From assembly GCF_036365525.1 (NCBI RefSeq), contig NC_090388.1, forward strand, positions 43,731,159 through 43,795,158: a stretch of DNA of 64,000 nt. Reading direction: 5' to 3'. The DNA is from Heterodontus francisci. Taxonomy: Eukaryota. The notes below the pieces were generated by a model. That model saw nothing but the letters and a program-made list of their open reading frames with translations. It had not been told where the DNA came from and did not search any database. Positions 2,141-61,603 of this stretch are shown piece by piece. The position numbers were made by a program, and so were the translations under genes. Numbering within the stretch: position 1 is the first letter of the stretch; every line of letters begins with the position of its first letter.

Positions 2141-2618
2141 GAAGAGGTCTGTCTCGGAGCACCAGTTCATGCATGACAAGAGCAGGTCTATCCAGGAGCT
2201 GCAGAGGCGGATCTGGCTGCACAACGTAATGGGCGAGCTGCACACAGCTGAGGGCCGGGGAATGGCTCACTCACAGCCGTCTCGCAACCCCAAACACCCG
2301 GCGACGTGGCCGGACTCGGGGGACCTGGCCGTGCTTCTCATCAAACTCGCAGCCAACAGCAGCAACAACGAGGGCACCAAGACTCCGCTGGAACAGCTAC
2401 AAGAGACCAACAAGCCCGGTCCTTTCAAATACCAGAACGCAAAGAAGAATGGCAAGAGGAAGAAGCAAGGGAAAAACAACAAGCGCAAAGCGCAGAGAGG
2501 TCGGGAGGAGAAGAGCAGAAGGCACACACGCTCTGCGGGTTCCGAAGTTAGGGATCCCGGCAGCGGATCCGACTCGGAGCCGCTCCCCACTGCCGCCTAT
2601 GGACGGTTGTGGCACTAA
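2141..2618 (+). CDS. PTHLH: Parathyroid hormone-related protein, main coding exon (mature hormone, basic NLS, C-terminus)
   Basis: ttttgtAG acceptor; KR-SVSEHQFMHDKSRSIQELQRRIWLHNVMGELHTAE is PTH-family 1-34; QETNK, Lys/Arg-rich NLS and RRHTRSA match PTHrP rather than PTH; TAA at 2616-2618; synteny with KLHL42 and MANSC4. Confidence 0.97.
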
Positions 2619-3529
2619 AGGGCCAACTTGTAAAATACACCCTTAGGTAATTACATAATGCTGTCCCAGTCGATTCTCTCAGACTTGCTATAAAGGTCAA
2701 AAGGCGAGTGGTAGTGCAGATAATACCCGATACCGGCAAATTGCGGCTGTGATGTACAGTCAGCAAAACCTGGCTGCACCCAGGTACAACGAGCACAGGG
2801 CAGTCTATATTCAAGTGCATGGAGGTATGTTCGCACCTGCATTCCCCAGACAGTAACTTTTAACGTAAGCTGAGAACAGGCACGTAGCATTAAAATAGAT
2901 CCATTCAAACTATTAAATGGATAATTGTGAAATGCATCTTTGCACCAGGGTGCAGTTATATCGCATCCATGGCAAAATTCCAAGCAGTGTCGTACTTAGT
3001 GTCAGATCAGCACCCAAACTACACGGATACTTTCTTGATTTTCACATTACGCTGACGTGAAAGTGGCGGCATAACTGCAGACTCAGATTGGTTTTGCTTT
3101 AAGTCAATGAACAAAATACTTAAAAAGTGAAAACTTTTCATTAATTATAGCCAGAGGCTGTAACATGTTGGAACCTAATCGACTTTGTACAACATAATCC
3201 TTTGTAAAATGTCTTACGGTTGCACTGATGCTATCATTTTTGTGTGCAGTTTGATTGTGAATCAGCACAAGTTAGGATCAAATCTAAAGATAAGAGGTGC
3301 TAGACCCCTCCAAAAATCAATTTTGCAACGACTGGGCTTGTCACTGTATGGAGTATAATTTCCGGATGCACCTGGCTGGTTTAAAAGCAGCTCAGATGGA
3401 TCGCATCTCCTCTGCACTTGTAAAACTTGGTGTGCAGTGAATGTTGCATGTTTTGAGAAAAGGGACACTACAGCCCAGTCTCCCGAAGTTAAAAGGGTGC
3501 AGGAGGAGAAGAGCTCTGTGCAAACATTC

Positions 3530-3830
3530 GCAAAACAACCGCTTACATTTATTTAACAAGGCCTTTAACGTAGGGAAACGTCCCAAAGCACGTCACAGAA
3601 ACCTAGTCATTGAGCTAAAGAAGGAAACATTAGGAGGGGGACTAAAAGCTTGGTCAAAATGGTGGATTTTAAGGAGGGTCTTAAAGGAGATGAGAGAGGT
3701 GGAGAGGTTTAGGAAGAGAATTCCAGAATTGAGACCAAGGCATCTGAAGGCATGAGTGTGCAGAATTCTTGGATGGTTGTAGGGCTGCAGGAGATTACAG
3801 AGAAGGGAGGAGTGACACCCTAGCAGGCAC
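3530..3830 (-). mobile_element. L2-type LINE 3' fragment; a second copy at about 4265-4480
   Basis: Same sequence family as 17270-18190 and 40945-41725 (aaaagcttggtcaaa...agagaattccaga). Confidence 0.65.
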
Positions 3831-4537
3831 CATCCGATTCACAACCACTTTCAGTCCATGCGTATGAAAGCTGTTATTTGCATATTACAAGTACCATATC
3901 TTGAGTTGACACTACAACTTTAGTGTTACTGCAAAATAAGTTTCATAAAAAGTAAAATATAAAGTTGCTGTATAAATCCATAGTCCTAACCCATCATTAA
4001 CTGCAGATGGAAGTGGAGTGGAGACTTTTCGGAGGAGACAGTCGCGTATGGCTTGGGCTTGAGACGGCATGGAGTGTAACTCCGGCATGATGTCAAATCA
4101 CATTTAATCACATCTCCACAGGACAGCTTGAACTTCCTGGATACTTGTTAAAACCAACAGGAGTTAATTTAAACATTTAGACAGTGTAAAACTGATATAG
4201 CAACTACAGAGTAAACCAGGCAGTGTAAATAGTGTACTGCCTGTATTTCTGGTACAGTATAACAGCAACTCGCATTTATATAGCGCCTTTAAGGTAATAA
4301 AATGACCCAAAGCGCTTCATTGGAGTGTTATAAAGCAAAGTTTTACAGCAAGCCACATAAGGCAATATTAGGGCGGATGGTCAAAAGCTTGTTTAAAGAG
4401 ATAGGTTTTATGAAGTGCCATAAAGGAAGAAAGAGAGGTTTAGAGGGAATTCCAGAGCTGAGGGCCTAGGCAGCTGAAGGGGTACACCGATGAACTCACT
4501 CTCACATGACCTGTAGAATCCAGCCTCTCAAACTGGT

Positions 4538-4657
4538 AAATTGCCCCTAGTGTAGGTAGGTGGTAGGGAATATGGGATTACTGTAGGGTTAGTATAAATG
4601 GGTGGTTGTTGGTAGGCACAGACTCGGTGGGCCGAAGGGCCTGTTTCAGTGCTGTAT
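4538..4657 (+). mobile_element. HE1-type SINE, 3' part
   Basis: Reverse complement of part of 58807-59099; ends in the CR1/HER1-like tail gggccgaagggcctgtttcagtgctgta. Confidence 0.7.
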
Positions 4658-4671
4658 TACTAAAAAATATA

Positions 4672-4888
4672 TATAAAAACAAGAAATGCTGGAACCACTC
4701 AGCAGGTCTGGCAGCATCTGTGGAAAGAGAAGCAGAGTTAACGTTTCGGGTCAGTGACCCTTCTTCGGAACTGACCCAAAACGTTAACTCTGCTTCTCTT
4801 TCCACAGATGTTGCCAGACCTGCTGAGTGGTTCCAGCATTTCTTGTTTTTATTCCAGATTTCCAGCATCCGCAGTATTTTGCTTTTAG
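4672..4888. repeat. Fold-back Penelope-derived repeat (arms of about 80 bp)
   Basis: 4672-4754 is a near-perfect reverse complement of 4771-4852; same family at about 33480-33960, 44030-44445, 51660-51810 and 63207-63337. Confidence 0.8.
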
Positions 4889-5819
4889 TACAAATTTTTA
4901 TTATCTGTTTTCACATAACTGCCCTGATTTACTTTAAATGTTGCTGTAATAACATTTCCTAGTCACAGATTCATAATTTTATAGGTATTAGGTTGATATT
5001 CAGTAAAGTCCAATATGAGAAATATCCAACAATCAACTCAGAAGTTATCAAATATTTTCCAGCGCCCCTCTTTCACATTACAGTCGAATACTATGGAAAC
5101 TGTTTCAAGCAATTTATCTAATGACCTGTTTGATTTGCAAGAACGACAAAATATCCAATAAATTAGTACTTTTTCTATATTTTGTTCGATTTTGAGATTC
5201 TGCCTCTCAAGGTGAAGGACAATTTTTAACATTTAATGGTCAAAAGATATCCTCTTTAAGTAACCTTGCCAACGAGTGGACAATTTTTATACCTTGGACT
5301 GGTCCAATGAGAACTGGAATAAATTTGAAGGAACACATTTAACTTGATACGTAGCTGAGTGAGGAGAGAAAGATACTTTCACTCCTATCTGTCTAGCTTA
5401 TAAGTGTTCTAGCCTACTGCACCAGCCAGCTCCCACACGGAGGATTCAAAGTACAGGCCAATAAACGTTCTATTCATGTAAGCAGTATAGCAGAGTTACG
5501 AGCTTGAGAGTAACATGGATTAGGTCTAGGAATCAGCAGCTCGATATTGCACCTGACCATGGAATACACAGCAAATTGTGTGCATGCAAACATACATGGC
5601 TGAAGCCATTTCCTGTCGGTGCAAAATGTGTAGTATAACTAGTCTATTAGAAGGCAGTCTACCTGGCTATTTGGTATTTTCACAGGGATTCCCAATTAAA
5701 GTTCTACTTGTTACAAAGTTATCAACGTAATTGTTCATTGATCATATTTTAATGGAGCGTTGCGGGTTTTGTTTGTTTAAAATACAAAGTGACGACCTAA
5801 TTTTCCTTTTTTTTTGCAG

Positions 5820-6160
5820 GCAGGTCTGTTTTTCAGGAGAGACCGAAAAATATTTTGCAGTATTCTGTATTTGTGATCATAATTAAACTATTAAACATAT
5901 TTATTGATTGTAAATATAAAAACACACGAGAATAAAAACGTGAGTGTACACTATAGAACTGTACATTGGTCATTCTAAATATTTGGCAATCCATGATTAA
6001 TGTCCCATTCCGTAATTTATTTGTTAAGTCATCTATTTATTTGAATTGTGTATCTTGGTGCTGCTAACTTTATATATATAAATATTGTAAATATATGCAC
6101 TTTAGAGTTCAAGTAATGTTGTTACGTGACCTATAATAAAGTGTTTTCGTGGTTCCTTGA
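5820..6160 (+). other. PTHLH: Terminal 3' UTR exon of PTHLH
   Basis: Long T tract plus cAG acceptor (5818-5819), partner donor ag|GTAATT at 2647, ATTTA elements, AATAAA at 5931 and 6135. Blocks such as GTATCTTGGTGCTGCT and CATTGGTCATT recalled from the mammalian PTHLH 3' UTR. Confidence 0.8.
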
Positions 6161-17269: not shown

Positions 17270-18190
17270 CAATAATTTGTTCTTATATAGCATCCTTAAA
17301 GTAATAAAATGTCCCAAAGTGCTTATAAAGCAGAATTTAACACCGAACCACATAAGGAGATATTAGGTCAGATGACCAAAAGCTTGCCAAAGAGGCAGGC
17401 TTTAAGTAGCATCTTAAAAGAGGAAAGAGTGGTAGAAAGGTGGAAAGGTTTAAGGACAGAGATCCAGAGCTTAGGGCTTGGGCAACTGAAGGCAGGTTCA
17501 CCAATGATGGAGTAATTAAAATTGGGAATGCTCAAGAAGCTAGAATTGGAGGAGCACAGCTATCTCAGAGGGTTATGAGGCTGGAGGAGATTACAGAGAT
17601 AGGGAGGGGTGAGACCACAGAGGGATTTGAAAATAAGGATGAGAATTTTAAAATCGAGGCTTTGCTTAACTGGGAGCCAATGTAGGACAGCGAGGACATG
17701 GGTGATGGGTGAACAGGACTTGGTGCGAGTTAGGTCAGAGTTTTGGATGACCTCAAGTTTACAGTGGGTAGAACGTGGGAGGCCGACCAGAACTGCATAG
17801 GAATAATCAAGTCTAGAGGTAACAACGGCATGGATGAGAATTTCAGCAGCAAATGAGCTGAGGCAGAGGGGGTGTCAGGCAATGCTATGGAGGTGGAAAT
17901 AGGTTGTCTTAGTGATGGCACAAATATGTGGTCAGAAGATCATCACAAGGTTAAATATGGCACCAAGGCTGCAAACAGTCTGGTTTAGTTTCAGAGGGTT
18001 GCCAGGAAGAAGGTGAAATTGGTGATTGGGGAACAGAGTTTGTAATAGAGACCTGGCTTCGGTCTTCCCAATATTGAGTTGGAGGAAATTTTTGCTCAAT
18101 CAATACTGGATGTCTGACAACTGATAATTTAGACAGTGAAGGTGTCGAGAGCGTTGGTGTTGAGGTAGAACTGGATGTCCTCAGTGTAAA
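17270..18190 (-). mobile_element. L2 LINE 3' fragment, tail-to-tail with the previous copy
   Basis: Reverse-complement similarity to 16300-17190 (e.g. ccagcgctctcgac versus gtcgagagcgttgg). Confidence 0.8.
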
Positions 18191-18552
18191 CGCCCAAATA
18201 TTCTAAGTAAATAGAGAAAAGTTAATCATTCACAATAGGATTATTTTCAGAACTAGGATACACGAAGTGACTGTAGCTTCCAAGCTATTTGTTTGGGGAT
18301 CGAACTGGGCAAAAATGTCGCAGTAAAGTGGCCACGCTTCAATTATTGTGCATTAACACAGTTTGTTTCGGTTTGCAATAATTTGAGTACTGTATTACTT
18401 AGTTTTCGACGAGGTCTGATTACGTGAATCGAGACGTCCGACAAATATTCATCCTGCAGAGAACGATCTCCAGGTTTGTAAACCAAGAAACGGGATAACA
18501 TTATTTGTTACTACCTTTCTGCAGAAGAGCCAGCTACTGTGAACTTCTAATC

Positions 18553-19506
18553 ATGGCCATTCCATATGGGATCATCTTCGCCACCATTTGCAGTGTCATC
18601 GTGTTGGTTGGGGTGTTCGCCCATATGCTGGTGTTCTACATCTTCACCAAGTATGTTTCATTCCGTAAAAACCGCTTGGACATCCTATTGGTAAGCATGG
18701 CCGTGGCAGATTTCATCTCTCTCCTTCTAGATCCTTTCCTTATCGTGGCTGTTCTGGGATATACATGGCCCTTTGGAAGGACATTCTGCAAAGTGTTTCA
18801 GTTCCTCTTGGCGTTCTCTTTGGCCGCCAGCGCTTACTCCCTGTGCGCTGTCTCCATTACCCGGGCCTGGATCATATTGAAACCCCACAGACCCCCTGCA
18901 ATGACTTTCAGCATGGTCATGTTGGTCTTCGTCTGGGTTTTGAGCCTCTGTGTGACCATACCTCTCCGGATCAATGCCACAACAGGGAGAGGGAATCACA
19001 ACATCACCCTCTGCGTGTCGGGGTTATACCAGCACAAATACAAGACCATCTTAGCTCAGTTCATCCTTTATTATTTGGTCCCCATGCTGGTGATTGCCTA
19101 TAACTACGCTCGTCTTGCAGTCTTCCTTCTTAAAAGCCCCATGATGTCTTTGGTCAGTTCCAGAAATACAAGAAGGGCGTCCATTATGATTTTATTTGCC
19201 ACGGGCTCCTTCTCTGCGTGTTGGCTGCCCAGCTATATCTTAGAGCTCTGCATCTACCTGGGCTCCTGCTATCGTGGGCAGACCTGGGAAATACTCTTTT
19301 TCGGCTGCACCGTCCTTAACTATTTCTACCCGTGTGTCAACCCGATCATTTACGTTTTGCTAGCCAAGAGATATCGGAATGAGAAATCGTGCTGGAGCCT
19401 GTCTTTTAACACACATAAAGTGCACCCCAAGAACAGCGCGAGAGGTCTAGATGAGAAGATTTTCTCATGCCATCGAACTTACAGACTTCAAAACACATCT
19501 ACCTGA
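18553..19506 (+). CDS. Class A (rhodopsin-like) 7TM peptide-receptor-like orphan GPCR, galanin/kisspeptin/allatostatin-receptor-like, about 317 aa
   Basis: Uninterrupted ORF with seven hydrophobic segments, MAVAD (D2.50), WPFG..CK, ECL2 Cys, TM5 Pro, CWLP and NPIIY. Kozak atcATGG; AATAAA at 19905 and 19955; possible acceptor at 18523-18524. Confidence 0.9.
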   Translation: MAIPYGIIFATICSVIVLVGVFAHMLVFYIFTKYVSFRKNRLDILLVSMAVADFISLLLDPFLIVAVLGYTWPFGRTFCKVFQFLLAFSLAASAYSLCAVSITRAWIILKPHRPPAMTFSMVMLVFVWVLSLCVTIPLRINATTGRGNHNITLCVSGLYQHKYKTILAQFILYYLVPMLVIAYNYARLAVFLLKSPMMSLVSSRNTRRASIMILFATGSFSACWLPSYILELCIYLGSCYRGQTWEILFFGCTVLNYFYPCVNPIIYVLLAKRYRNEKSCWSLSFNTHKVHPKNSARGLDEKIFSCHRTYRLQNTST

Positions 19507-21049: not shown

Positions 21050-21920
21050 TCCAGAGGTGAGGTGAGAGTGACTGCCCTTGACAACAAAGCAACATTTGAC
21101 CAAGTATGACATCAAGGAGCACTAGCAAAACTGAAGTCAATGGGAATCAGGGGGAAATCTCTCTGCTGGTTGGAGTCATACCTAGCAAACAGGAAGATGG
21201 TTGTGGTTGTTGGAGGTCAATCACCTCAGCCCCAGGACATCACTGCAAGAGTTCCTCAGGATAGTGTCCTAGGGCCAATCATCTTCAGCTGTTTCATCAA
21301 TGACCTTCCCTCCATCATGATATCAGAAGTAAGGATGTTCGCTGATGATTGTACAATGTTCAGCACCATTCGCAACTCCTCAGATACTGAAGCAGTCCGT
21401 GTTCACATGCAGAGGACCTGGACAACATTCAGGCTTGGGTTAATATGTGGCAAATAATATTTGTGCCACACAAGTGCAGGCAATGACCATCTCTAACAAG
21501 GGAGAATCCAACCATCTCCCATAGACATTCAATGGCATTATCATTTCTGAATCCCCCACTATCAACATCCTGGGAGTTACCACTGACTAGAAACTTAACT
21601 GGACCAACCACATAAATACTGTGATTACAAGAGCAGGTCAGAGGCTGGGAATTCTGTAGCAAGTAACTCACCTCCTGACTCCCCAGTGCCAGTCCACCAT
21701 CTACCAGGCACAAAGCAGGAGTGTGATGGAATACTCTCCACTTGCCTGGATGAGTGCAGGTCCAACAACACTCAGGAACCTCAACACCATCCAGGACAAA
21801 TCAGTCCACTTAATTGACACCTTCAATATTCACTCCATCCACCAGCGATGCACAGTGGCAGCAGTGTGTACCATCTACGAGATGCACTACAAGACTCAGC
21901 AAGTCTCCTTCGACAGCACC
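21050..21920 (+). mobile_element. LINE RT fragment interrupted by the Gypsy element; resumes at 28109-28417
   Basis: VPQDSVLGP...MFADD. The intact site cgacagcaccttccaaacctgc (seen in the copy near 10030-10055) is split between 21920 and 28109. Confidence 0.85.
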
Positions 21921-24900
21921 TGTTATGGCCGACTGCTCAAGACAAAGCATCCAATCAAAATATATGATTCTGATTGCGGTGGGAGAAATGCATTGTCAAC
22001 TCAGTCCTGCCACTCCACAGATCGCCTAAACTTTCCAAATTAAAGGAAACCACAGCCAACTTGACTATCTATTAACCCCCTGAATGAGGCAAACCAAACC
22101 AGGTGTCCTTAGATCAACAAATTAACTGTTTAATTAGAAAACCTAAATTCTTAGACATTATTAAGATATAAACAACATTTCAAATAGCAAAAGTTAGTGT
22201 CCTTGCAGATTTATGCTCCTGCCAAAGTGGTATCTTCCAATGTGGAACAGTCCTAGGTTGCCTGAAGTTCTCACAGCCATACAATGGGGGGAAAAAGGTG
22301 CTTCAACAGTCGGACAGTCAGTAGTTTAGTTCCAGTTGAAGTGATGCTCTTCTTCCAGCGATGAATTCAGCAATCAACAACTTGCAGACACTTTTCAATG
22401 AATCAATTTGGCTTTAGAATTGTTTTGTAGGGTGAAAAAGTGATCAGTCTAAAATTCACCACCTTTCAGTTTAAATTATCAGCGATCTCTGTTAGGTCCA
22501 TGCTGGTCCAGCTGTCTGTCTGTCTGTCTCAACTAAAAAGCCAGTTCAAAATGTAATTGTAATATTGTATATCCGGTCCTTGTTCTCGGAAAGGCTGTTA
22601 CCGGGTAACCAGGATGCATTCTTTGAAGCTGGTTGGTTTCCTCTCCCTGTGGTTGTATCCTACGGCAACGAGAATACATTCTTTGACTCACAGTCCCTAG
22701 AGCTTGCTGCCTTAAAGCAGTACTGATCTTCTTGCAGCCTTAAAGGCACACTGCATACTTCCTGGAAAAAAAGCTACAGGATCATAACACTTCCGCCCCT
22801 GGTAGAATGAAACGCCATTCCTGAAATGCATTTCATTACAATGGGTGAAAAAAAAAATTGAAAAAAAAACACTAACATTTTTTTTCCCACATTTACAGGC
22901 ATACACTTTTCTCTAAAAATGGTAAGATTACAGCAACAAGTTCCACCAGAACATTTCAGCTTTAAACTTTCAAAAGGTTGTCCCAATTAACCCATTTCAA
23001 ATTTCCAAGTATTGTCTTCCAGTTTCGTATTTTCCTTCTAAGTGTCCCTATGATCCATCACCTCAGCCAGGTGAACGACACAGCTAGGAGCACTGACCGC
23101 TACTGGGTTCACTATTCTCTGAGAAGTTTTTCGATTACCCCTTAACCTATGTGGCATCACTTGATACTGGAAAACCCTGTCCCATGTAACAGAAACTGAT
23201 TTTTTCTTACCCTGGGGTGTCAAAGGAATTTGACAGTATCCTCCAACACATCTGTTTCTTTAATACACATTGTGTTGCCCACTCTGCCTAGACAGTCCTT
23301 TAAATGAGAATTTGCGTAGGAGTCTATGCAAGTTTGAGCCGTCCCACCAGGTTTAGTCATCAAGACCATCTGTGAATTCCAGCTGTCCTAACTAGGTTCA
23401 ACTAAGCTGCCCTTCAGCAAGCATTGTACCGTTGCTTCCACTTGGGCCTGTCTGTCCAGACCTACACGGCAAGGATGTTGTTTCAAAGGAATGGTTCCTC
23501 CTATACCTACATCAAGTGTGGCTAAGGGTGTACATCCCAGCTTATCCTTACAAACCTTTTGAAATGTTGTGAAAAGCCTGGTTAGGTCTTCATGCTGTTT
23601 TGCCTCCAAAAGAATTTTGTCTAATTTTCCTAGCCATTCTATATTCGCTAATCTGACAGTTGGAGGTTCCATCTAAGAATTTCCTAGGCCTGCTTCTGCC
23701 TCATCCTCACTATCCTTTTTCTTCTCAACAGTCCCGATTACCTGACATACCTGTACTGCTTATCCTCCTCCCTGTGGTAATATTGCTTGAGCATATGATG
23801 TGACACAACCAGTTCTTCTTCTGGCGATCAGGGGTGTCAATCAAGTAATCTACCTTCCCCACTCATTTGATTACTCTATATGGGCCACTGAACCATGCTT
23901 TTAATGGTTCTCTCTGTGATGGTAACAACACTAATACTTCATCCCCTGGTTTTATGGTAGGTTGTGGTTTTCCCACCATTTGACAGGTATAGCATGTCCT
24001 ACAAAATTGTTTCACATCTTTTGTAAGACCTGGCCAGTAATAATGTTGACTTATGCATGATTTGGTCTTCCAAATTCCCCGAAATCCTGCAAAAGGAATG
24101 TCGTGTGCTAACCTTAATAGTCCTTGTCGATATTTAGGTGGTACCACTATCTGTTCAACAGCAGTCCAGTCTTAGTCAGCAGGGGATTAGAATAGATAGG
24201 CTTGATGGCCGGTGCAGACACGGTGGTCTGGAGGGCCTGTTTCTATGCTGTCTAACTCTATGACTCTAGGCCTATGAGGCGGTCTCCATTTCTCCCTCAA
24301 ACCCCCATTTGCCATATAATAGCCTTCCAGAACTCCTTTCGCCTCAGCTTAGGTCAGAGCTGTCTGTGCTTTTCCAGATATCCCTGGTGTTATGACCGAC
24401 TGCCCCCGTCAAAGTCCCCAATCAAAATATACGATTCTGATTGTGGTGGGACCAATGCACTGTCAATTCAATCCTGTCGTTCCACAGATTGGCTAACATA
24501 TCATTTAAAAACGTTCCAAATTAAAGAAAGAACCAGCCAAATTGTACCATCTATTAACCCCCGAATGAGGCTAACCAAACCAGGTGTCTTTAACTCAACA
24601 ACTTAACTCTTTAATTAGAAGAACTAAATTCTTAAACATTATGAAGATATAAACAACATTTAAAATAGAAAGCATTAGCGTCCTTGCAAATTTACTGTCC
24701 AATGTTGCTCAAAGTCCTCACAGGATGTTGCTCGAAGTCCTCACAGGATGCTTTCCTTCTCCAGCGAATTTCAACAGTTAACGAATTGCAAACACTTTCA
24801 ACAGAATCAATCTAACTTTAGAGTATTTGAGGGATAAAAGATTGTCACAGTCTAACTTCCCCTTCTTCAATTTAAATTACCAGAGACCTCTGTTTTGGCT

Positions 24901-32000: not shown

Positions 32001-32446
32001 TTAAATTACATTAGGGTAATACAATGAACAAAGTAAAATGTTTTGGCCAAATGCTGGAAAACGTCGGAATGCTTCCCACATATCTGAAAATAGATTGTAT
32101 TTCAGGAATACACGATGTTCAAGACTGGTTGTTGGTGCAATATCTCTGCTTATGATGTAGATTCCATCATTGTGCAATGTGCAAGTTAAATTTAGTCCAG
32201 ATTTTGATGTGTTTTCCTTGAGGAAGAGCCATTCCCTAGTGGTCACATTGTAGGACTGTACAGTGAGCATGTCTTCAGTACGGCTTCCCTTTCCACTTCC
32301 ACCTTTTTCATGGATGCAGCCACCCACAAGATAAATCGTATCTTCCACAGAAACCATTTGTTGTTTACGAATATGAACCTCACAGGATTCTAATACAGTC
32401 CAGGCATCTGAGGTAGGGCAATATCGTAATATGTTCATATTTCTAT
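32001..32446 (-). CDS. KLHL42: Kelch-like 42, last coding exon
   Basis: Acceptor ttttactttcAG; DRNMNILRYCP...KENTSKSGLNLTC...WEAFRRFPAFG matches the KLHL42 C-terminus; TAA at 32003-32001. Confidence 0.96.
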
Positions 32447-33035
32447 CTGAAAGTAAAAGTTTTTTTTAATGAATTTATAAACAAGATAAATACTTTTAAA
32501 CATACATAGAATTACAAAGCCGATACTGGAGCACTGTCAAAGATGGGAAGTTTAATGTTATTACAAAACCAAAATATAGATTCTGAAAAGAAAAATGCAC
32601 ACTGGATAAAATTAGAACAAAGTGGACCTCCATTGCCACCAGCTAGAATGGCAATAGAATGAGTTCCATTGTTGTGGAGATAGATAACATATAGATATCA
32701 GGGTACAGCAAGAGTATCCAAAAATGCAGCTGAGCAATTTGGTGCTCACACGTGCTGACCCATGATGCGATTCTCTACACTGCGGCAAGAAAAAATCTTC
32801 ATCACAGAGATGGAATATTATTGGCTCAGGTATGCCAAGCTATTAAAATGCATAGATATGAGTGTAGGACACTACACTAGGCTGGGTGTAAATTTAAAGG
32901 CAATTTTTAACTCTCAAATTTTTTCCAGATGCTGTCTCCTCTTTCCAAATTTGTTTAGGAATTAAACTCAAAAGAATGGGGGAGGCAGCCTGTAAACTCA
33001 ATGTAGCCACGGTCAATCAAAACAATTAAAGCACT

Positions 33036-34229
33036 GGGGCCGGATTTTCAAAGGGCCCCCGGTTGGGACCTGGCGCGGGCGCCATTAGTAAATCACAGTC
33101 CTGGAGGTCACCTCAGGCTGCTGACACTTCCGAGACAGTTTCAAGTTTTCAAAGTGCCGGGGTGGGGGGGGGGGGGGGGGGGGAGAGGGGGGAAGGGAAA
33201 CATGCATGCTATCAATTAAAAGCCCGTTAAGCTCCTTTAGCTGGTTAAGATGTCGGGGCATTCGGGAAGGCAATTTTAAAATCAGATTTCGGCAATCCCC
33301 ACCAGTCTGCTGCACAGCTGTCCGGTCACCACGGACAAAAGCAAGCTTGTTTCCATGTGTATTAAGATTAAATTTGAGGGGCCATCTAGCACTGGGTCAA
33401 GGGCTGTATTGCCATTTGGTGTCTGTGGCCACTTTCCACTGTCATAGCTGACCTGGCTCATTCATCATCTTTCAGAGCATGGGGGGGGGGCTCCCCCTTT
33501 TTATTTTTAGTTATTTTTTTTTTATTTGTTTATTTTATTTTAGCTTGTTTCATCATTCATTTTTTACCATGTGCCTACCCACTTTTTTTTTTATGTTTGT
33601 GCTTTGGGCCAGGGCTGTTCATTTTTCTGTCAATTAACACCCACTCTGCACTAACGCTTTGTCTTTCAGCATACAATTAACATACCGTTTGCCTTTGCTC
33701 CATGACCTTCTGGTCAGTTATTCTTTATGACCCTCTGTCCTATCAACACCTTCCATTTTGTTATCTCTTGCTCCACCCCCCACTTTATTTGCTTGAAACC
33801 TATTACATTTCCAATATTTGCCAGTTCTGATGAAGGGTCACCGACCTGAAATGTTAACTCCGCTCCTCTCTCCACAGATGGTGCCAGACCTGCTGAGTAT
33901 TTCCAGCATTTCTTGTTTTTATATCAGATTTCCAGCATCTGCAGTATTTTGCTTTTATTACCTTTCATAAGCTGCCTGCTCTCCTCAGCAAGACAGCAGC
34001 AGTTCCAAACATGGCTGCTACCTGCGTTTGCTGCTAGCACCAGGCAGGCAGCTCCCGCCTCCTGGAGGCGCTCAGTGCCTCAAATTGGGCGCCAAGCTTG
34101 CTTCCTCCTCAATTAAAGCATTAGCATTCAAAGTTTGCATCGCAAGAGCAACACAGCTGAAGCACGGGGTTGGGACATGGAATTCGTCAGGGTGTCGGGT
34201 TCCCAGCCCCACTTTGAAAATCCAGCCCC
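33036..34229. mobile_element. Harbinger-type non-autonomous element in KLHL42 intron 2, with nested Penelope-derived insert (about 33480-33960)
   Basis: TIRs ggggccggattttcaaag / ctttgaaaatccagcccc match at 17 of 18 positions. Confidence 0.7.
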
Positions 34230-35145
34230 TAGTGTCTTTCAAAATGATAATGACACTACAAATTATAAAATTACTAACTCCGACCAGGAGCATAAATGAT
34301 GTAGGTTGTTAAACTTTGCAACATTATCAAGAACAAAGTCTTATAATCAGCTAACAGACAACAGGGTTCAAGCAAAACAGACTCTTACTGCTGTGGAACC
34401 TTTACTTTCCATGTTCATGGCAGACAGCTTGAGGAATTATAACTCCCAGCTCTTGCTCAGTACACCCATCTGTAGCAGGTTCAGAGCTCCCGCAGCAAAA
34501 TCAAATCTCATCAAAAAAGGAAGAAAAGTTGGGGGATAGAGTGTCATCCTGGGTAGCTCTTGAATACCTTCCAATAGCTCAGAATAGCATTGGTGATAAC
34601 TGGGAACAGGCCAACTGCAGTTGTTATGAATGCCCTGAAAAATGTAAGAGATTTTGTTTTGTTAAAAAGTGTACGAATGTCAGTTAGTAGCTTCTGCAAG
34701 GAAATAAAAGGGGCATGCAGGCTCCTGTAGGAATACATTTTTAATTCTAATAAATACTGTGTGTTTTAAAAAGTTGGTCTCTCAAATTTTACAGTTTTTA
34801 AACTGATGCTGCCTGTGGTTCAATTTTTGCTAAAATCTGCATAGTGACTCTATGGTATTGCATATTTATTATTGCACAGAGTGCCAGCAGGCCTCACCCA
34901 GTATGACCCTCTATCCATCTTTTCTTTCCTGTCATTACAGAAGTGCCAAGCCTCCAATCAAGCCAATGAAATTGAGATCAAGGACTCAAAATTGACAGGC
35001 AAGTAAAATCAGTGCATCATCACTGTTACAGTCTACTTGTCAATGCATCAACAAATCACCCAGGATTTTTTTAGTATATATATATATTGCTTAAGCAGAC
35101 AGTCAACAAATCTCCTTTAAAACCTAGAACCAAAAAATATCTCAC

Positions 35146-35339
35146 CTCGTGTTGTGTATCCACCTATTACATAGATCATCCCTTTGCATTCACAGGCTGA
35201 GAACTCCACAAGAGGATCTGGCATTGAGGCTACAAAACTCCACCAATCCATCTCTGGACTGTAGCATTCAACATTGCAAAGTGACTGTCCACCTACTGCA
35301 TACAATTTCCCACTTACAGCTAGAAGTTTAAAATTTGAT
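35146..35339 (-). CDS. KLHL42: Kelch-like 42, coding exon 2
   Basis: AG and GTGAG boundaries, 194 nt, phases 2 and 1 fit the neighbours; SNFKLLAVSGKLYAVGGQ...ACECKGMIYVIGGYTTR kelch repeats. Confidence 0.96.
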
Positions 35340-37705
35340 CTAAAGAGAGATAAATATGGAAACAGTATAAAATGTTCAATACTGTATTTCTCAAAATCAC
35401 ATGCAGTTTCAACAAGAGATTACACAATATTTGCCATTTAAGTGGCAAAAAAATATACTTTGTTCTCAGAGTGAAGTACATTAGTATTAGACAATAGGAT
35501 ATTCTTTATTTTTGGTTGCCCTTTGTTAGCACCAAGCATTCCCCATTCAGATGCAGTATGGTTAGCAGAACAAAGTTCCCTCTACTTGGTCTCAATAATG
35601 TACCTTATTCCCAACCCACTCCCTACAGAACCAGTGTGTCATTTTCCATATCCTACACAGCCATCCTGTGGCTTTTCTGAGTGAGATGGACAATGTAGTG
35701 CTTATTAATGCTGAAATCAGGAAAACTTTGGGCTGGGGGTCTATGTCCTGTAGCTTGAGATTGGCCAAACTAATGTCACATACAACACTTAGAGCCTGTA
35801 GACAGGAGAGTTGGATCCTGTCACGTGAAACCTAATTCAGATCTTGGTTTCAGAGTATTATTTTGAAACTGCATTGCAAGTCAACATGCATGCTGCAGCT
35901 CTGATTATCCCATCATCTAACTGTAAAGGTGGACTTGTTGGAAGAATTAAAAGAAAGGTAATGGTAATTAACAAAGAGAAATAATTTTTCTAAAAATGAG
36001 CAGCATTAAAGAATGTGCTGCCCTTCATCTATAAGTACCTCACTCCCTTTAGCCTAACCCAAGCTCATGGCACAATATAGCGTCAAATGCAACAGACTGA
36101 ATACCTATGCAGTCTCTGTAGCCTCTGCAGTCAGAGCCCAGATAACATCAAGCCACTAGAGGACTGGCATGAAAGGAGGGTTGTAACATAATTTTTTGCA
36201 TGACGTGGCTTATGCTATACTTCCACTGCTGAATGTCCACTGAAATTATTACTGTTGTCCCTCAGGTTGCCTTCTAACGTTTCTCTGAATATTCTGCTAT
36301 CTTCCTAACATTACTGGTACCATGTATCTGGGCAGCCTGATGCTGTCCATTGTCTGCATATTCCAAATCATTTCAAGCAATTGCTAGCATGTATAGGCTG
36401 CCTTTGTTCATCCATCTCATCCTTCCAAAGTTTTCTTGAGGTACTTGTGCGACAGGAAAAAAATAGGCCACAGGAATTCATTCAGAGTACCAAACTCTTT
36501 TTCTCATAAAGCCACATTCCTGTTGTAAATAATTTGAAAATCTCAATTAGAATTGGAAGCCAGGCTGGCACAGACTAGACTTAAAATAAAATGCGTTCAT
36601 ACTTTTCTTGGGATTGTTGAAATACATACGAAGAAAACAGGTGGAAAAAATAGTGTCCACGATACCAAAACTTTTTTCTAAAAAAATACCCAAATATACG
36701 ACGTTTTCCTAGGGGCAAAAGGGCAATGCAAATAGGATAATCTATTGGAAGTTTAAACCTTTAGGAAATTAAGAACATACTGAGTGGTCTATGACAGTTT
36801 GTCAAATGCCTATTTCTTTAATACAACTTAGTCTAGGGAAAAGCATACACCTCTCTTGCTAAAAAGGAATCCTTTGAAGAGTGCAAACACCTAGTGATTT
36901 GTATTCCCTACTGGATGTGGCCAGTTCTGGCTTCCTGAGAGCTTTTATACAAAACTTAATTGTTTACATAATATCTTGATCACGGCACAGCAGCTCATCT
37001 GTACTCTGAGCATTATATCCCTACATTTAGATTAATAAGGCATATAGTTATAAATATTTTACACGACTGTTAAATGTGCCTTTTTATATTAAAAAAACAT
37101 GAGAAATCCAGTGTCAGCCAAACTACAATGGGACAATGTCAGCGTTATAGCTGACAAATATACTGCAATGATGTTCATCCATTGCTATAAAACATTTGTC
37201 TTTTATTTTAAATACTGGCATGAGAATTGCTAATGGAAATATAAATTATACTCTCACAGGTACAACAGTGCATTATCGCAGTGACATCATAAAATAGTTT
37301 CAACCCATTTACTGGGCTTGAAAAATACTTGCTTCAATTAACTTTGTTTCAGTTGAAAAGCTGTTGTGTTGCATTTATGGAAAAAGAATGAGCCATAACA
37401 CATATGGTAATTGTCTCAAATTGTGAGGCGACTGTTATTCACTTTCCCCCCATTGAATTATCTGGGCAGTCTCACCACTTGTATCAGCCATATGTATAAA
37501 AATATATCTTTTATCTTTTGTAGGAAAAATACCCTTTCTTGGAAATTTTGTAGAACTGTAATGGTGACATTTTTCAGACATACAACCTTATCTGTAAAAA
37601 ATCATTTGAAAATATTTTTGGTAATAGGAAGGAGATTCTTGGGAAAATAGCATGTCGAATAGCACCGTGTGGTGACAGTGAACTACAAGAGTGTCATCTT
37701 TGTAC

Positions 37706-38466
37706 CTTTTCTGATTCATTGGTGCAATCTGATTCCACTCGTTTTTGCAGGGATTGTAGCAATGTGCAGCTGCGATCTCCTGATTAGTCATCCTGTATCC
37801 ACCAATAATGAAAAGGTAATTATTCAGGACTATTGAGCCATAGCCCCTCACATTCACCATGTCCAGAGGGAGGCTGTTTGCCAGGGGTAGCCATCTCTGT
37901 ACGACCTCATCGTATCTCAGCATTGACCAGGCCTCATCAGGAGCCTGGTTCGAGGAGGTGCTGAAGAAATCCCCAACTGCCACCAAGACAGCTGTGCCTT
38001 TAAGGCGCATCTCCCTGATCTGTTGGCGCAAAGTGTTCGGTAGATGGCTGAATTCCTGTCTCCTTAGCACGGGATGGTAATGACACACCATGAACCTGAG
38101 GGAGGCATTCATTAGATCACTGATTCCATAAATTTCTGAAAGTTTATATAACTCCACACAGTTGTCCACTTTAACCTCAGAGAGGAGCAGCTTCAAGATG
38201 GAAGTCACCTGAAGAAAAGATGCCGTTTCCACTAAATCTTCCAAGGTCTCATTATCGAAATCCACTTTGGAGGTATTGATGAATTCAATGACCAGCTCCA
38301 GTCCATGAGCACTCAACCCTTGCAACTGTACCGAGTCCTCTTCAGATTCCTTCATCCCAGAGTTAAAGAGGGCTCTGAAATAGTCGCTTTTCTCAATTAA
38401 CTTACTTTTGTTGACATTGTACGTCTTACCTTCTATTATGATAGCAATGATTTCTTCGGAGGACAT
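37706..38466 (-). CDS. KLHL42: Kelch-like 42, coding exon 1 (BTB/BACK plus first kelch); spliced product about 466 aa
   Basis: SDYFRALFNSGMKES BTB motif; donor AAAAG|GTAC at 37705. Confidence 0.96.
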
Positions 38467-44656: not shown

Positions 44657-45822
44657 ATGGGGATGGTTCACCCTGTATTCATTGATCCGCTTCTTGAGAG
44701 GATCCATATGCACCGCAGGCAAAACCAACAGGCAGATGCAGCACACATAGAGGCCCCCGGTCATGAGCAGCAGCACCCAAGGAGAGCTCACCACTGCAGA
44801 TCTACAGGTCCCACATGACATACCTGCAGATATCAGAGCGTCAGTGTCAGAGGTGACTGCAGATGTCGAGAGAGGCAGTGACACATCCCTGCGCCCTGCT
44901 TCTTGATGACATGCAGCCCAGGGGCTTCGGGGGACATCCTATGCCTGTGGCCCTCAAAGTGACAGCAGCTCTCAATTTTTACACCTCTGCATCATTTCAG
45001 GGGCCCACTGGAGACCTTTATGGTGTCACACAGTCAGCAGTGCACCGCTGCATCAGGGAGGCTACCGATGCCGTGTTCCGGAGGGCTGGTGACTATATCC
45101 GCTTCACGACTGACCTTGGAAGCCAAGCGAGACGGCCGCCAGTTCTGCTCCATCGCAGGATTCCCACAGATGCAAAGGGTCATAGACCCTTGTTGTTGTT
45201 GGCGACCAGCTGAATACGTAAACCATAAGGGCTCCCACTCAAACAATGTGCAGCTCGTATGTGATCACCAGAAGCGATTCATGCAAATCTGTGCCCGCTT
45301 TCCAGGCAGCTGCCATGACACCTTCATCCTGTGCCAGTCGTAGTTGCTGTTGCTGTTCATTGAAATGGTTCGGATGGAGGGGTAGCTTCTTGGAGACAAG
45401 GGCTACCCCTTGCAGACATGACTGCTGACACTGGTGAGACACTCCAGCACTGCTGCAGAAGAACGATACAACACCAGCTAAGGAGCTACAAGAGCCACCA
45501 TTGAGCAGGCGATCGGTCTGCTTAAAATACGATTCCACTGCCTGGATAGATCAGGTGTTGCCCTGCAGTACAGGCTAGAAAGGGTAGCTCGCATCATTGC
45601 AGTTTGCTGTGCTGTGCACAACTACACAGTCAATAGCGGGGAGGCCTTGCAGGATGAGGAGAGACATGAGCCGGACTCATCTTCGGATGATGATGATGCT
45701 GAGGTCTTACAGCAGGGAAGGCACATGGGAGGACAGAGAACATCCAGGCACTGCATGCAGGGTGAGCAGCGAGCTAAGGATGCACAGCAGCACCTCATTG
45801 CTCAAAGGTTCTGCACGCCATA
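44657..45822 (+). pseudogene. PIF/Harbinger DDE transposase remnant
   Basis: PVALKVTAALNFY, AGFP...ID, NHKGSHSNNVQLVCD, ARFPGSCHD, LGDKGYP and IEQAIGLLKIRF...CAVHN across frameshifts and stops. Confidence 0.9.
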
Positions 45823-59920: not shown

Positions 59921-60117
59921 ATTGTTCATGCCAAGACAATTGATTAGGTTGAAATCATATTATGTAGTTGATTAGATTAAAACCACAGTGTAAGCAGAAA
60001 CTGAAGTTGTGTAACCACATGGTGAGACACTTATAAGATAGGGAACTGGGGAACAAAAGGGGCCACAGGTTCATTAGAATGTATGTGACTTGCATTGCAG
60101 GTGATAGGGGACACATA

Positions 60118-61603
60118 CGGATGCCAAATTTTCAAATCCTCTCTGGCCACAGGCGAGATGGCAGAGGACTGGAGGACAGCGAATGTGGTACCATTATTCA
60201 AGAAGGGTGGTAGGGATAAACCAGGTAATTACAGGCCAGTGAGTCTAACATCAGTGGTAGGGAAACTATTGGAAAAAATTCTGAGGGACAGGATTCATCT
60301 CCACTTGGGGAGACAGGGATTAATCAAGGATAGTCAGCATGGCTTTGTCAGGGGGAGATCATGTGTAACAAATCTGACTGAATTTTTCGAGGAGGTGACT
60401 AGGTGTGTATATGAGGGTAAAGCAGTTGATGTAGTCTACATGGACTTCAGTAAGGCTTTTGATAAGGTCCCGCATGGGAGATTGGTCAAGAAAGCAAGAG
60501 CCCAAGGGATCCAGGGCAGTTTGGCAAATTGGATCCAAAATTGGCTTAGTGGCAGTAGGCAGAGGGTGATGGTCGAGGGCTGTTTTTGCAAGTGGAAGCC
60601 TGTGACCAGTGGTGTACCTCAGGGATCAGTGCTGGGACCCTTGCTGTTTGTAGTGTACATTAATGATTTTGATGTGAATATAGGAGGTATGATCAGTGAG
60701 TTCGCAGATGACATGAAAATTGGTGGTGTCATAAATAGTGAGGAGGAAAGCCTTAGATTACAGGACGATATAGATGGGCTGGTAAGATGGGCAGAGCAGT
60801 GGCAAATGGAATTTAATCCTGAGAAGTGTGAGGTGATTAATTTTGGGAGGACTAACAAGGCACAGGAATATACAATAGATGGCAGGACCCTAGGAAGTAC
60901 AGAAGGTCAGAGGGACCTTGGTGTACTTGTCCATAGATCACTGAAGGCAGCAGCACAGGTAGATAAGGTGGTTAGGAAGGCACATGGGATACTTGTCTTT
61001 ATTAGTTAAGGCATAGAATATAAGAGCAGGGAGGTTATATGGAGCTGTATAAAATGCTAGTTAGGGCACAGCTGGACTACTGTGTACAGTTCTGGTTGCC
61101 ACACTACAGAAAGGATGTGATTGCACTGGAGAGGGTGCAGAGGAGATTCACAAGGATGTGGCCTGGGCTGGAGCATTTCAGCTATGAAGAGAGACTGGAT
61201 AGACTAGGATTGTTTTCCTTAGAGCAGAGAAGGCTGAGGGGGGACCTGATTGAGGTATACAAAATTATGAAGGGCATAGATAGGAAGAAACTTTTTCCTT
61301 TAGCGGAGGTGTCAATAACCAGGGGGCACAGACTTAAGGTAAGGGGCAGGAGGTTTAGAGGGGATTTGAGGAAAAAAAATTCACCCAGAGGGTAGTTGGA
61401 ATCTGGAACGCATTGCCTGAGGGGGTGGTAGAGGCAGGAGCCCTCAGAACATTTAAGAAGTATTTAGATGAGCACTTGAAACGCCATAGCATACAAGGCT
61501 ACTGGCCAAGTGCTGGACAATGGGATTAGAATCGATAGGTGCTTGATGGCGGCGCAGACACGGTGGGCCATATGGCCTGTTTCTGTGCTGTATGACTCTA
61601 TGA
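60118..61603 (+). mobile_element. Relatively young 5'-truncated CR1 (HER1-like) LINE
   Basis: NYRPVSLTS, DFSKAFD, VPQGSVLGP and FADD; stop at 61007 plus a frameshift; tail tatgactctatgac. Confidence 0.93.

What the first reader, a model, noticed from the sequence alone, without database searches (positions are those of the whole stretch)
18553..19506. Intact orphan peptide-type GPCR between PTHLH and KLHL42, apparently missing from the mammalian locus
Seen: a clean 317-codon 7TM ORF amid decayed repeats, on the same strand about 12 kb downstream of the PTHLH 3' end. It keeps D2.50, the TM3-ECL2 Cys pair, CWLP and NPIIY. It has TRA for DRY (18859-18867), His for the near-invariant TM1 Asn (GVFAH), an extra TM2 Asp (LLDPF), only about 5 residues before TM1, and two N-glycosylation sequons (NAT, NIT) in ECL2. 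Known: the motif pattern resembles galanin/kisspeptin/allatostatin-A receptors, and I know no coding gene in this interval in human. Inference: an ancient receptor lineage lost in mammals, with an unknown ligand and atypical (constitutive, biased or decoy) signalling. This is the best candidate for an undescribed system in the window.
Basis: partly seen in the sequence, partly recalled or inferred. Interest (0 to 1): 0.8.

Follow-up and report, generated by a model that had tools for sequence, protein, structure and literature searches.

The report
Unstudied fish-reptile orphan receptor beside PTHLH
This shark gene encodes a real, long-conserved cell-surface receptor that databases mislabel as a galanin receptor; it belongs to its own unstudied family, found in sharks, bony fish, coelacanth and reptiles but not in birds, amphibians or mammals, and its signal molecule is unknown.

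Summary
The ORF and all listed motifs are real. It is a single-copy class A GPCR of a shark, with orthologues at 46-87% identity in sharks, ray-finned fishes, coelacanth, turtles, crocodilians and lizards. None was found in mammals, birds or amphibians. Databases auto-name it galanin receptor 2a/2b, but it is not one: this genome holds five galanin-receptor loci and GPR151 elsewhere, the TM2 proline is at 2.58 (galanin receptors 2.59), and most galanin contacts are replaced. The xRA-for-DRY change and the tiny N-terminus are family-wide; the TM1 His, TM2 Asp and first sequon are shark-only. R3.50, Y5.58, Y7.53, D2.50 and a polar pocket are conserved, so a ligand-gated G-protein receptor is likelier than a decoy. 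A near-invariant [RK]VxP tail (183 of 188) suggests ciliary sorting. Trees join it, with moderate support, to two other DRY-less orphan lineages near the galanin branch; AU tests did not reject other placements. Gene models put it beside pthlh in several teleosts. Expression, ligand and coupling are unshown. Undescribed non-mammalian GPCR clades are common, so interest is moderate.

The parts
18553..19506 (+). Coding sequence of the orphan class A GPCR (P0001, 317 aa), uninterrupted; ATG has A at -3 and G at +4
   Evidence: single copy in G000, next paralogue 28% identical
18500..18524 (+). Pyrimidine-rich tract ending in CAG 28 nt before the ATG: candidate acceptor of a 5'UTR intron (inferred). 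An in-frame TAA at 18496-18498 closes the frame upstream
   Evidence: sequence; frame opens at 18499; similar element 22 nt before the ATG in teleost-type locus L097
18150..18500 (.). CpG-rich single-copy stretch just upstream; candidate promoter or first-exon region (inferred)
   Evidence: CpG o/e 0.87 at 40% GC in 18001-18500; 18150-18560 matches only itself in G000
18622..18624 (+). His at 1.50 in place of Asn; sharks only within this family, but the majority state in sister lineage B
   Evidence: H12, N170, Y2; lineage B: H72, Q47, N1 of 120
18709..18735 (+). TM2 from D2.50 to P2.58 (one residue shorter than galanin, kisspeptin and GPR151 receptors); D60 is shark-only
   Evidence: receptor table in PMC5403833
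18859..18867 (+). TRA in place of DRY; R3.50 invariant, 3.49 never acidic
   Evidence: R 191 of 191; 3.49 A84/T78/V28/L1; 3.51 A179
18973..19014 (+). ECL2 with sequons N141 (sharks) and N150 (139 of 190) and the disulfide Cys154
   Evidence: of 193 family proteins 123 have one ECL2 sequon, 18 two, 52 none
19132..19182 (+). Short, strongly conserved ICL3/TM6 start (KSPMM...SRNTRRAS) with R6.31, R6.32, S6.34
   Evidence: 74% mean pairwise identity, equal to TM3, in 25 diverse members
19339..19353 (+). NPxxY, preceded by an extra Pro at 7.46
   Evidence: N7.49 and Y7.53 189 of 189; P7.46 181 of 189
19417..19428 (+). KVHP: conserved [RK]VxP tail motif inside a poorly conserved tail; candidate ciliary sorting signal
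   Evidence: 183 of 188 family tails against 5 of 111 control GPCR tails; flanking tail 27-28% identity
19788..19793 (+). First downstream AATAAA, candidate poly(A) signal
   Evidence: sequence
2142..6140 (+). Neighbour: PTHLH mature-peptide exon (2142-2618) and last non-coding exon (from 5820; AATAAA 6135-6140)
32001..38466 (-).

Best explanation
A functional orphan class A GPCR defining its own jawed-vertebrate family, wrongly auto-named galanin receptor 2. SHOWN: intact, single copy, conserved from sharks to reptiles under purifying selection; distinct from GALR1/2/3 and GPR151, which this genome carries elsewhere; next to pthlh in this shark and, by fused gene models, in otophysan teleosts. 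INFERRED mechanism: with almost no N-terminus, a small unknown ligand (most likely a short peptide with a basic group) binds a pocket of conserved polar residues (Q3.29, R at the TM4/ECL2 border, Q5.42, Y6.52, E6.55, W7.31, E/D7.32). Activation runs through the usual W6.48/P5.50/F6.44 switch to R3.50-Y5.58-Y7.53 and a heterotrimeric G protein, most likely Gi/o given the short basic ICL3 and the nearest solved relatives. Loss of D3.49 probably raises basal activity; S6.34 may hold R3.50 in the resting state, as the equivalent Thr does in the mu-opioid receptor (recalled). The [RK]VxP tail probably sorts it, plausibly to cilia. It was lost separately in mammals, birds and probably amphibians. 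Step odds: distinct family 0.9; couples to G protein 0.75; ligand-gated 0.65; peptide ligand 0.5; Gi/o 0.5; ciliary 0.35.
For: Sharp identity gap: family 44-87%, all else 33% or less in an exhaustive HMMER scan. Shark-teleost pair: dN 0.40, synonymous sites saturated (pS 0.747), codon-position identity 59/79/38%. TM3, ICL3 and TM6 73-74% conserved against 27% in the tail. D2.50, S3.39, R3.50, W4.50, P5.50, N7.49, Y7.53, Q3.29 and Q5.42 invariant among aligned members. Own GALR1-type (L066, L067), GALR2/3-type (L056-L058) and GPR151 (L086) loci. P2.58 against P2.59. Galanin contacts H3.29, Y4.64, R7.35 of PMC9371267 are Q, A and Y/H/F here. Mutating R3.50 impairs G-protein signalling and neutralising D3.49 raises basal activity in many receptors (PMC4353375 passages). 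RVxP/VxP motifs reported as ciliary signals (PMC5305262, PMC5350516).
Against: No expression, ligand or coupling data. Placement is soft: AU tests did not reject family+GALR2 (p 0.081), family+GPR151 (p 0.158) or the three orphan lineages inside the P2.58 somatostatin/opioid group (p 0.162); the family stem is long (1.6-2.5). Sodium-site positions 7.45 and 7.46 are changed to H/Y and P, and ICL2 is proline-rich, which could impair normal coupling. Y5.58 is Ser in 20 of 192. VxPx lowered ciliary enrichment of SSTR3 in IMCD3 cells (PMC5305262), so the motif is no proof of cilia. The 193-protein set is dominated by teleosts. Absence in birds, amphibians and mammals rests on protein databases, not on their genomes.
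Confidence: 0.6

Rival explanations
1. A ligand-free, constitutively active receptor controlled by expression and localisation.
For: No acidic residue at 3.49 (0 of 191) or 6.30 (T in 190 of 193); 7.45/7.46 altered; minimal N-terminus. DRY-to-VRY makes CXCR2 constitutively active (PMC4353375).
Against: Invariant polar extracellular pocket residues over about 450 million years suggest a conserved ligand; D2.50, S3.39 and S6.34 are kept.
Confidence: 0.17
2. A fast-evolved extra galanin/spexin (or kisspeptin-family) receptor, so the database names are roughly right in function.
For: The family profile's best solved matches are GALR1 (123.5 bits) and GALR2 (120.7), just ahead of opioid receptors (119.1); trees keep it in the wider group with the galanin clade at 85-92 support; AU p 0.081 for family+GALR2; L6.54 and a basic or His residue at 5.35 are kept.
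Against: The standard five-gene set GALR1A/1B/2A/2B/3 (PMC5207463 table) is matched by five other loci in G000; P2.58; intronless CDS; H3.29, Y4.64, R7.35 replaced; true shark GALRs score about 300 bits to human GALRs against about 80 for P0001.
Confidence: 0.1
3. An atypical, non-G-protein receptor: arrestin-biased, scavenger, or dimer partner.
For: DRY replaced by xRA, proline-rich ICL2, extra P7.46, Y5.58 lost in some cypriniforms, Ser/Thr-rich ICL3.
Against: R3.50, Y7.53, L5.65, R6.31/R6.32 and helix 8 are near-invariant; the cytoplasmic face is as conserved as TM3; the tail is short (median 35 aa, 5 Ser/Thr).
Confidence: 0.1
4. Functionally tied to PTHLH: read-through transcripts make a PTHrP-receptor fusion, or the receptor senses a PTHrP fragment.
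For: Six database models join pthlh sequence to the orthologue (P0025, P0153, P0018, P0367, P0368, P0369); adjacency kept in shark and otophysans.
Against: In this shark the PTHLH stop (2616-2618) precedes the apparent donor and a poly(A) signal lies 12 kb before the receptor; the fused models use different junctions; separate pthlhb and receptor models exist for Pygocentrus; PTHrP's known receptors are secretin-class.
Confidence: 0.03

Closest known systems
Galanin receptors GALR1/GALR2/GALR3 (PDB 7wq3, 7wq4, 7xjj, 7xjk)
   Same: Class A 7TM fold (TM-score about 0.75 to the model), TM3-ECL2 disulfide, short basic ICL3, S/T at 6.34; best profile match; same broad tree region.
   Different: Only 25-28% identity; P2.58 not P2.59; xRA not DRY; galanin contacts H3.29, Y4.64, R7.35 replaced; uninterrupted CDS against split GALR genes in this genome; 4-7 residue N-terminus.
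GPR151 (PDB 9w3k), DRY-less orphan related to galanin receptors
   Same: Orphan, single coding exon, no DRY, galanin-branch neighbourhood.
   Different: The shark has its own GPR151 on another contig (L086, E 5e-112 to 9w3k); GPR151 has K at 3.50 and P2.59 and exists in humans; not sister to the family in the best tree, though AU p 0.158.
Somatostatin/opioid/MCH/urotensin-II receptors (P2.58 group)
   Same: P2.58 TM2; mu-opioid receptor is the best single-sequence and fold match; RRx[ST] at 6.31-6.34.
   Different: Excluded from that clade (98/97 and 100/97 support), though AU p 0.162; those receptors keep D/E3.49 and have long N-termini.
Tentative orphans GPR195 and GPR196 of Rinne et al. 2019 (PMC6504862)
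   Same: Undescribed non-mammalian orphans listed in the CCK/GALR/KISS1R section. GPR196 (lamprey, duplicated in ray-finned fish, coelacanth) fits sister lineage B by range.
   Different: The supplement row matching GPR195 lists five birds and one reptile (row labelled GPR193; the match of rows is my inference), while this family showed no bird. The paper gives no sequences, so identity could not be tested; some family members may sit in those Ensembl trees.

Membership tests
Class A (rhodopsin-like) GPCR | 7tm_1 match over cut-off and seven-helix fold | tested here: met
   117 bits against cut-off 30.5; seven helices; Foldseek matches are all class A
Class A (rhodopsin-like) GPCR | Pivot residues N1.50, D2.50, R3.50, W4.50, P5.50, P6.50, P7.50 | tested here: met
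   Six of seven in P0001; 1.50 is His in sharks, Asn in 170 of 184
Class A (rhodopsin-like) GPCR | Activates a heterotrimeric G protein | not testable with these tools
   Needs cell assays; residues for it are conserved
Galanin receptors (GALR1-3) | Orthology: inside the GALR clade, no other locus filling the slot | tested here: not met
   Outside the GALR clade in all trees; five other GALR-type loci in G000. Caveat: AU p 0.081
Galanin receptors (GALR1-3) | TM2 proline at 2.59 | tested here: not met
   P2.58 in 191 of 191; GALR1-3 listed as P2.59 (PMC5403833)
Galanin receptors (GALR1-3) | Galanin contacts H3.29, Y4.64, R5.35, L6.54, R7.35 (PMC9371267) | tested here: not met
   Q3.29, A4.64, H/K5.35, L6.54, Y/H/F7.35: one kept, one partly; 4.64 is mapped by counting from W4.50
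Galanin receptors (GALR1-3) | Activation by galanin or spexin | not testable with these tools
   Needs pharmacology
GPR151 | Orthology and P2.59 | tested here: not met
   Separate GPR151 locus L086; P2.59 there. Caveat: AU p 0.158 for sisterhood
KISS1R / allatostatin-A receptors | P2.59 and placement in that clade | tested here: not met
   P2.58; outside the AstA-type clade (98/98). No vertebrate KISS1R was in my trees; AstA receptors served as proxy (PMC4489612); KISS1R is not among the best 60
Somatostatin/opioid/MCH/UTS2 receptor group | P2.58 | tested here: met
Somatostatin/opioid/MCH/UTS2 receptor group | Placement inside that clade | tested here: inconclusive
   Best trees exclude it but AU p 0.162
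Rinne 2019 GPR195/GPR196 | Contains the cited Ensembl peptides and the same species range | tested here: inconclusive
   Range differs for GPR195 (birds); the gar member's cluster lists only RefSeq entries; Ensembl identifiers cannot be looked up here

The most novel reading that the evidence does not exclude
The family and two further DRY-less, P2.58, His1.50 orphan lineages (B: lamprey, shark, ray-finned fish, coelacanth, turtle; C: sturgeon, gar) form one clade as old as vertebrates: an unrecognised branch beside the galanin and kisspeptin receptors, not found in mammals, sorted to cilia by a VxP tail, and answering to a vertebrate peptide hormone that has not been discovered.
Probability: 0.25. 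Interest if true: 0.72.

Novelty: new member of a known kind. Interest (0 to 1): 0.45.

Why it matters
It marks a conserved signalling system of fish and reptiles with no known ligand, testable in medaka, zebrafish or anole. It also exposes a naming trap: many RefSeq entries called galanin receptor 2a/2b (and, for lineage B, galanin receptor type 1) are not galanin receptors, so expression or genetic hits on those names in fish may be misread. A receptor family that has lacked D3.49 since the shark-bony fish split is a natural test of what that residue is for. Its ligand, if a peptide, would be a new vertebrate hormone.

Tried and rejected
Expression: no RNA holder listed; three same-sample contig sets (RNA status a guess) gave no cover of the ORF, and one 367-nt contig at 20017-20383; no evidence either way. 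Pseudogene or recent retrocopy: rejected. Longer N-terminus: the extensions in other shark models differ from each other; the Heptranchias one matches the DNA directly upstream, where this genome has an in-frame stop; no upstream exon was found in the window. Lineages B and C in this genome: none found (best 28-36% identity; the last used a stricter first look). ESM Atlas: generic 7tm_1 clusters only. Literature: (six accessions, 0 papers) found no description; subscription journals and bioRxiv supplements are not covered, and the entry NMOGPR in the PMC5207463 table has no sequence to test. Earlier scan notes: nothing by sequence or place, and eight unrelated notes by words. No complex prediction was run, for want of a candidate ligand. 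With lineage C left out, the A+B join fell below 80.

Full report
Observation. window:18553-19506(+) is an uninterrupted 317-codon ORF matching Pfam 7tm_1 at E 1.2e-33 and folding into seven helices (pLDDT 78.4, pTM 0.76; alignment A1, 32 rows). The PTHLH mature-peptide exon is at 2142-2618, its last exon starts at 5820 and has AATAAA at 6135-6140, 12.4 kb before the ATG. A BTB-Kelch gene converges from 32001-38466 (86 of 121 long frames were scanned, overlapping and low-complexity ones dropped). The ATG is in good context, an in-frame stop lies 54 nt upstream, a candidate splice acceptor 28 nt upstream is echoed 22 nt upstream of a teleost-type orthologue, and a single-copy CpG-rich stretch precedes it.

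Range. The genome is a shark's by homology (70-87% identity to seven named shark proteins). The gene is single copy; the next of 96 matches is 28% identical. One search returned 90 proteins: 86 family members (query included) at 46-100% and four at 27% or less. A reptile-weighted profile gave 98 family rows among the 120 listed of 188, then a drop from 204 to 85 bits. An exhaustive HMMER scan of 50% representatives found 6 of 4573 hits at E 1e-30 or better, all family, plus one family fragment; the rest of the 150 listed were 33% or less. Named members are sharks, bichirs, sturgeons, paddlefish, gar, bowfin, teleosts, coelacanth, turtles, crocodilians and lizards. All 31 unnamed rows checked were closest to ray-finned fish (23), squamates (6) or crocodilians (2). 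No mammal, bird, amphibian, lungfish, ray, chimaera or lamprey appeared. This is database absence; their genomes were not searchable. A human case report names seven of nine genes in an 898-kb interval around PTHLH, none a GPCR (PMC8085669, passages). Synteny: six database models fuse pthlh sequence to the orthologue in otophysan-type fishes, and Pygocentrus pthlhb and receptor share a contig length.

Selection. One shark-teleost codon comparison (302 codons) gave dN 0.40 with synonymous sites saturated (pS 0.747; corrected dS about 4, unreliable) and 59/79/38% identity at codon positions 1/2/3. Across 25 diverse members TM3, ICL3 and TM6 are 73-74% identical and the tail 27-28%.

Not what the databases call it. 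Auto-names include galanin receptor 2a/2b, mu-opioid, allatostatin-A, MCHR1-like, NPY6R-like and nociceptin receptor. G000 holds two GALR1-type first exons and three GALR2/3-type second exons elsewhere; one of each kind was checked against PDB and scored about 300 bits to human GALR1 or GALR2, against about 80 for P0001. That matches the five-gene set tabulated in PMC5207463 (passages and section 12). GPR151 is L086 (E 5e-112). The TM2 proline is at 2.58 in 191 of 191 aligned members, whereas GALR1-3, KISS1R and GPR151 are P2.59 (PMC5403833, passages; seen in my own rows); the motilin and ghrelin receptors show that P2.58 can arise separately among peptide receptors (same table). Of five galanin contacts in PMC9371267 (passages), only L6.54 is kept.

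Tree. A 187-row FastTree and mixture-model trees of 60 and 50 rows give the family (A) full support and a long stem. It joins lineage C (sturgeon, gar; 91/93 and 94/93) and lineage B (lamprey, shark, ray-finned fish with duplicates, coelacanth, turtle; 95/91 and 91/92), all three lacking an acidic 3.49 and having P2.58; B and C mostly have His at 1.50 like the sharks, and 87 of 119 B tails have VxP. The group sits beside, not inside, the galanin clade. Against this: long branches meet at A+C; without C the A+B join is under 80; AU tests did not reject A+GALR2 (p 0.081), A+GPR151 (p 0.158) or A+B+C inside the somatostatin/opioid group (p 0.162). Most outgroup labels (SST, UTS, MCH, NPBW, RXFP3, APJ, NPY, PRLHR, BN, AstA-like, AstC-like) come from recalled motifs and tree position, not from calls; no vertebrate KISS1R was included. 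Tandem-fused and fragmentary rows were left out.

Which oddities matter. In 193 family proteins (teleost-heavy), xRA and a 4-7 residue N-terminus are general, but H1.50 (12, against N 170 and Y 2), D60 (12) and the first sequon (13) belong to sharks. Invariant or nearly so: D2.50, S3.39, L3.43, R3.50, W4.50, P5.50, F6.44, W6.48, P6.50, N7.49, Y7.53, plus Q3.29, R139, Q5.42, Y6.52, E6.55, W7.31 and two unexplained cysteines (233, 252). Y5.58 is Ser in 20. Positions 7.45 and 7.46 are H/Y and P, and 2.40 is Asp in 183 of 185. The tail carries [RK][VI]xP in 183 of 188, against 5 of 111 other receptors (controls scanned over the first 45 tail residues, family median tail 35).

Mechanism (inferred). 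R3.50 is the residue G-protein signalling depends on, and neutralising 3.49 tends to raise basal activity (PMC4353375, passages). With the R3.50-Y5.58-Y7.53 set, a conserved basic ICL3 and S6.34 aligned to the opioid receptor's Thr (its role as an alternative lock is recalled), the simplest reading is a G-protein receptor, probably Gi/o, with some basal tone. The conserved polar and acidic pocket favours a real ligand with a basic group, and the missing N-terminus favours a small one. RVxP/VxP motifs have been reported as ciliary signals, and GALR2, GALR3 and KISS1R are among the cilia-localised receptors screened in PMC5350516 (passages), but VxPx worked against enrichment in IMCD3 cells, so cilia are a lead only. 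Nothing links it to PTHrP beyond position.

Prior description. Rinne 2019 (PMC6504862; main text parts 1-5 of 7, supplement parts 3-4 of 4 and two supplement searches) lists 142 clades without human orthologues, 69 undescribed. Its GPR196 fits lineage B by range; the row matching GPR195 includes five birds and fits A poorly, but no sequences are given. Searches by neighbours, by topic, by GPR195 and by six member accessions found no study of this gene; the library lacks most subscription journals. PMC4489612 and PMC12840693 were seen as passages only. Earlier scan notes held nothing relevant.

Verdict. Real, conserved, misnamed and apparently unstudied; a new family-level member of a well-known class, function unproven. 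Interest 0.45.

Noticed in passing
P0197, P0215, P0247, P0278, P0331, P0425 and hits P0389-P0504 (lineage B): A second DRY-less orphan family ([TS]RY, P2.58, His or Gln at 1.50), duplicated in teleosts and present in lamprey, a shark, coelacanth and a turtle, is widely auto-named galanin receptor type 1, delta-opioid or somatostatin receptor; probably Rinne's GPR196. Not found in G000.
   Followed up: partly
P0262, P0450, P0272, P0332, P0333 (lineage C): A third DRY-less orphan (VRY/LRH) seen only in sturgeons and gar, the closest relative of the family in the best trees.
   Followed up: partly
P0018, P0025, P0153, P0367, P0368, P0369: Gene models in catfishes and characins fuse pthlh coding sequence to the receptor; likely prediction artefacts, but one (Clarias) carries a curated-style name and might reflect read-through splicing.
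   Followed up: partly
P0093, P0020 and other cypriniform members: Y5.58 is replaced by Ser in 20 of 192 members, zebrafish included, so zebrafish may be an atypical model.
   Followed up: no
window:2616-2650 and 5820-6140: The shark PTHLH reading frame ends inside the mature-peptide exon; the last exon appears wholly non-coding and AU-rich.
   Followed up: partly
window:20017-20383: One 367-nt contig of run X2 matches exactly 0.5 kb downstream of the stop; could be 3'UTR, another transcript or DNA.
   Followed up: no
L097:2799-2808: A perfect TGACGTCA (CRE consensus, recalled) lies between the candidate acceptor and the ATG of the teleost-type orthologue.
   Followed up: no
G000 C18, C14 (two), C25, C41: Five PTH-family loci in this genome, two of them 6.5 kb apart on C14.
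   Followed up: no
window:47404-49124 (-), 60089-61006 (+), 44963-45340 (+), 23866-24171 (-), 21110-21454 (+): Broken mobile-element remnants: reverse-transcriptase pieces, a DDE_Tnp_4 piece and an integrase zinc-finger piece.
   Followed up: no
window:55838-56781 (+): Two long overlapping frames with no Pfam match upstream of the Kelch gene; one is Ser/Thr-rich and could be an exon of the next gene (MANSC4 in human, recalled).
   Followed up: no
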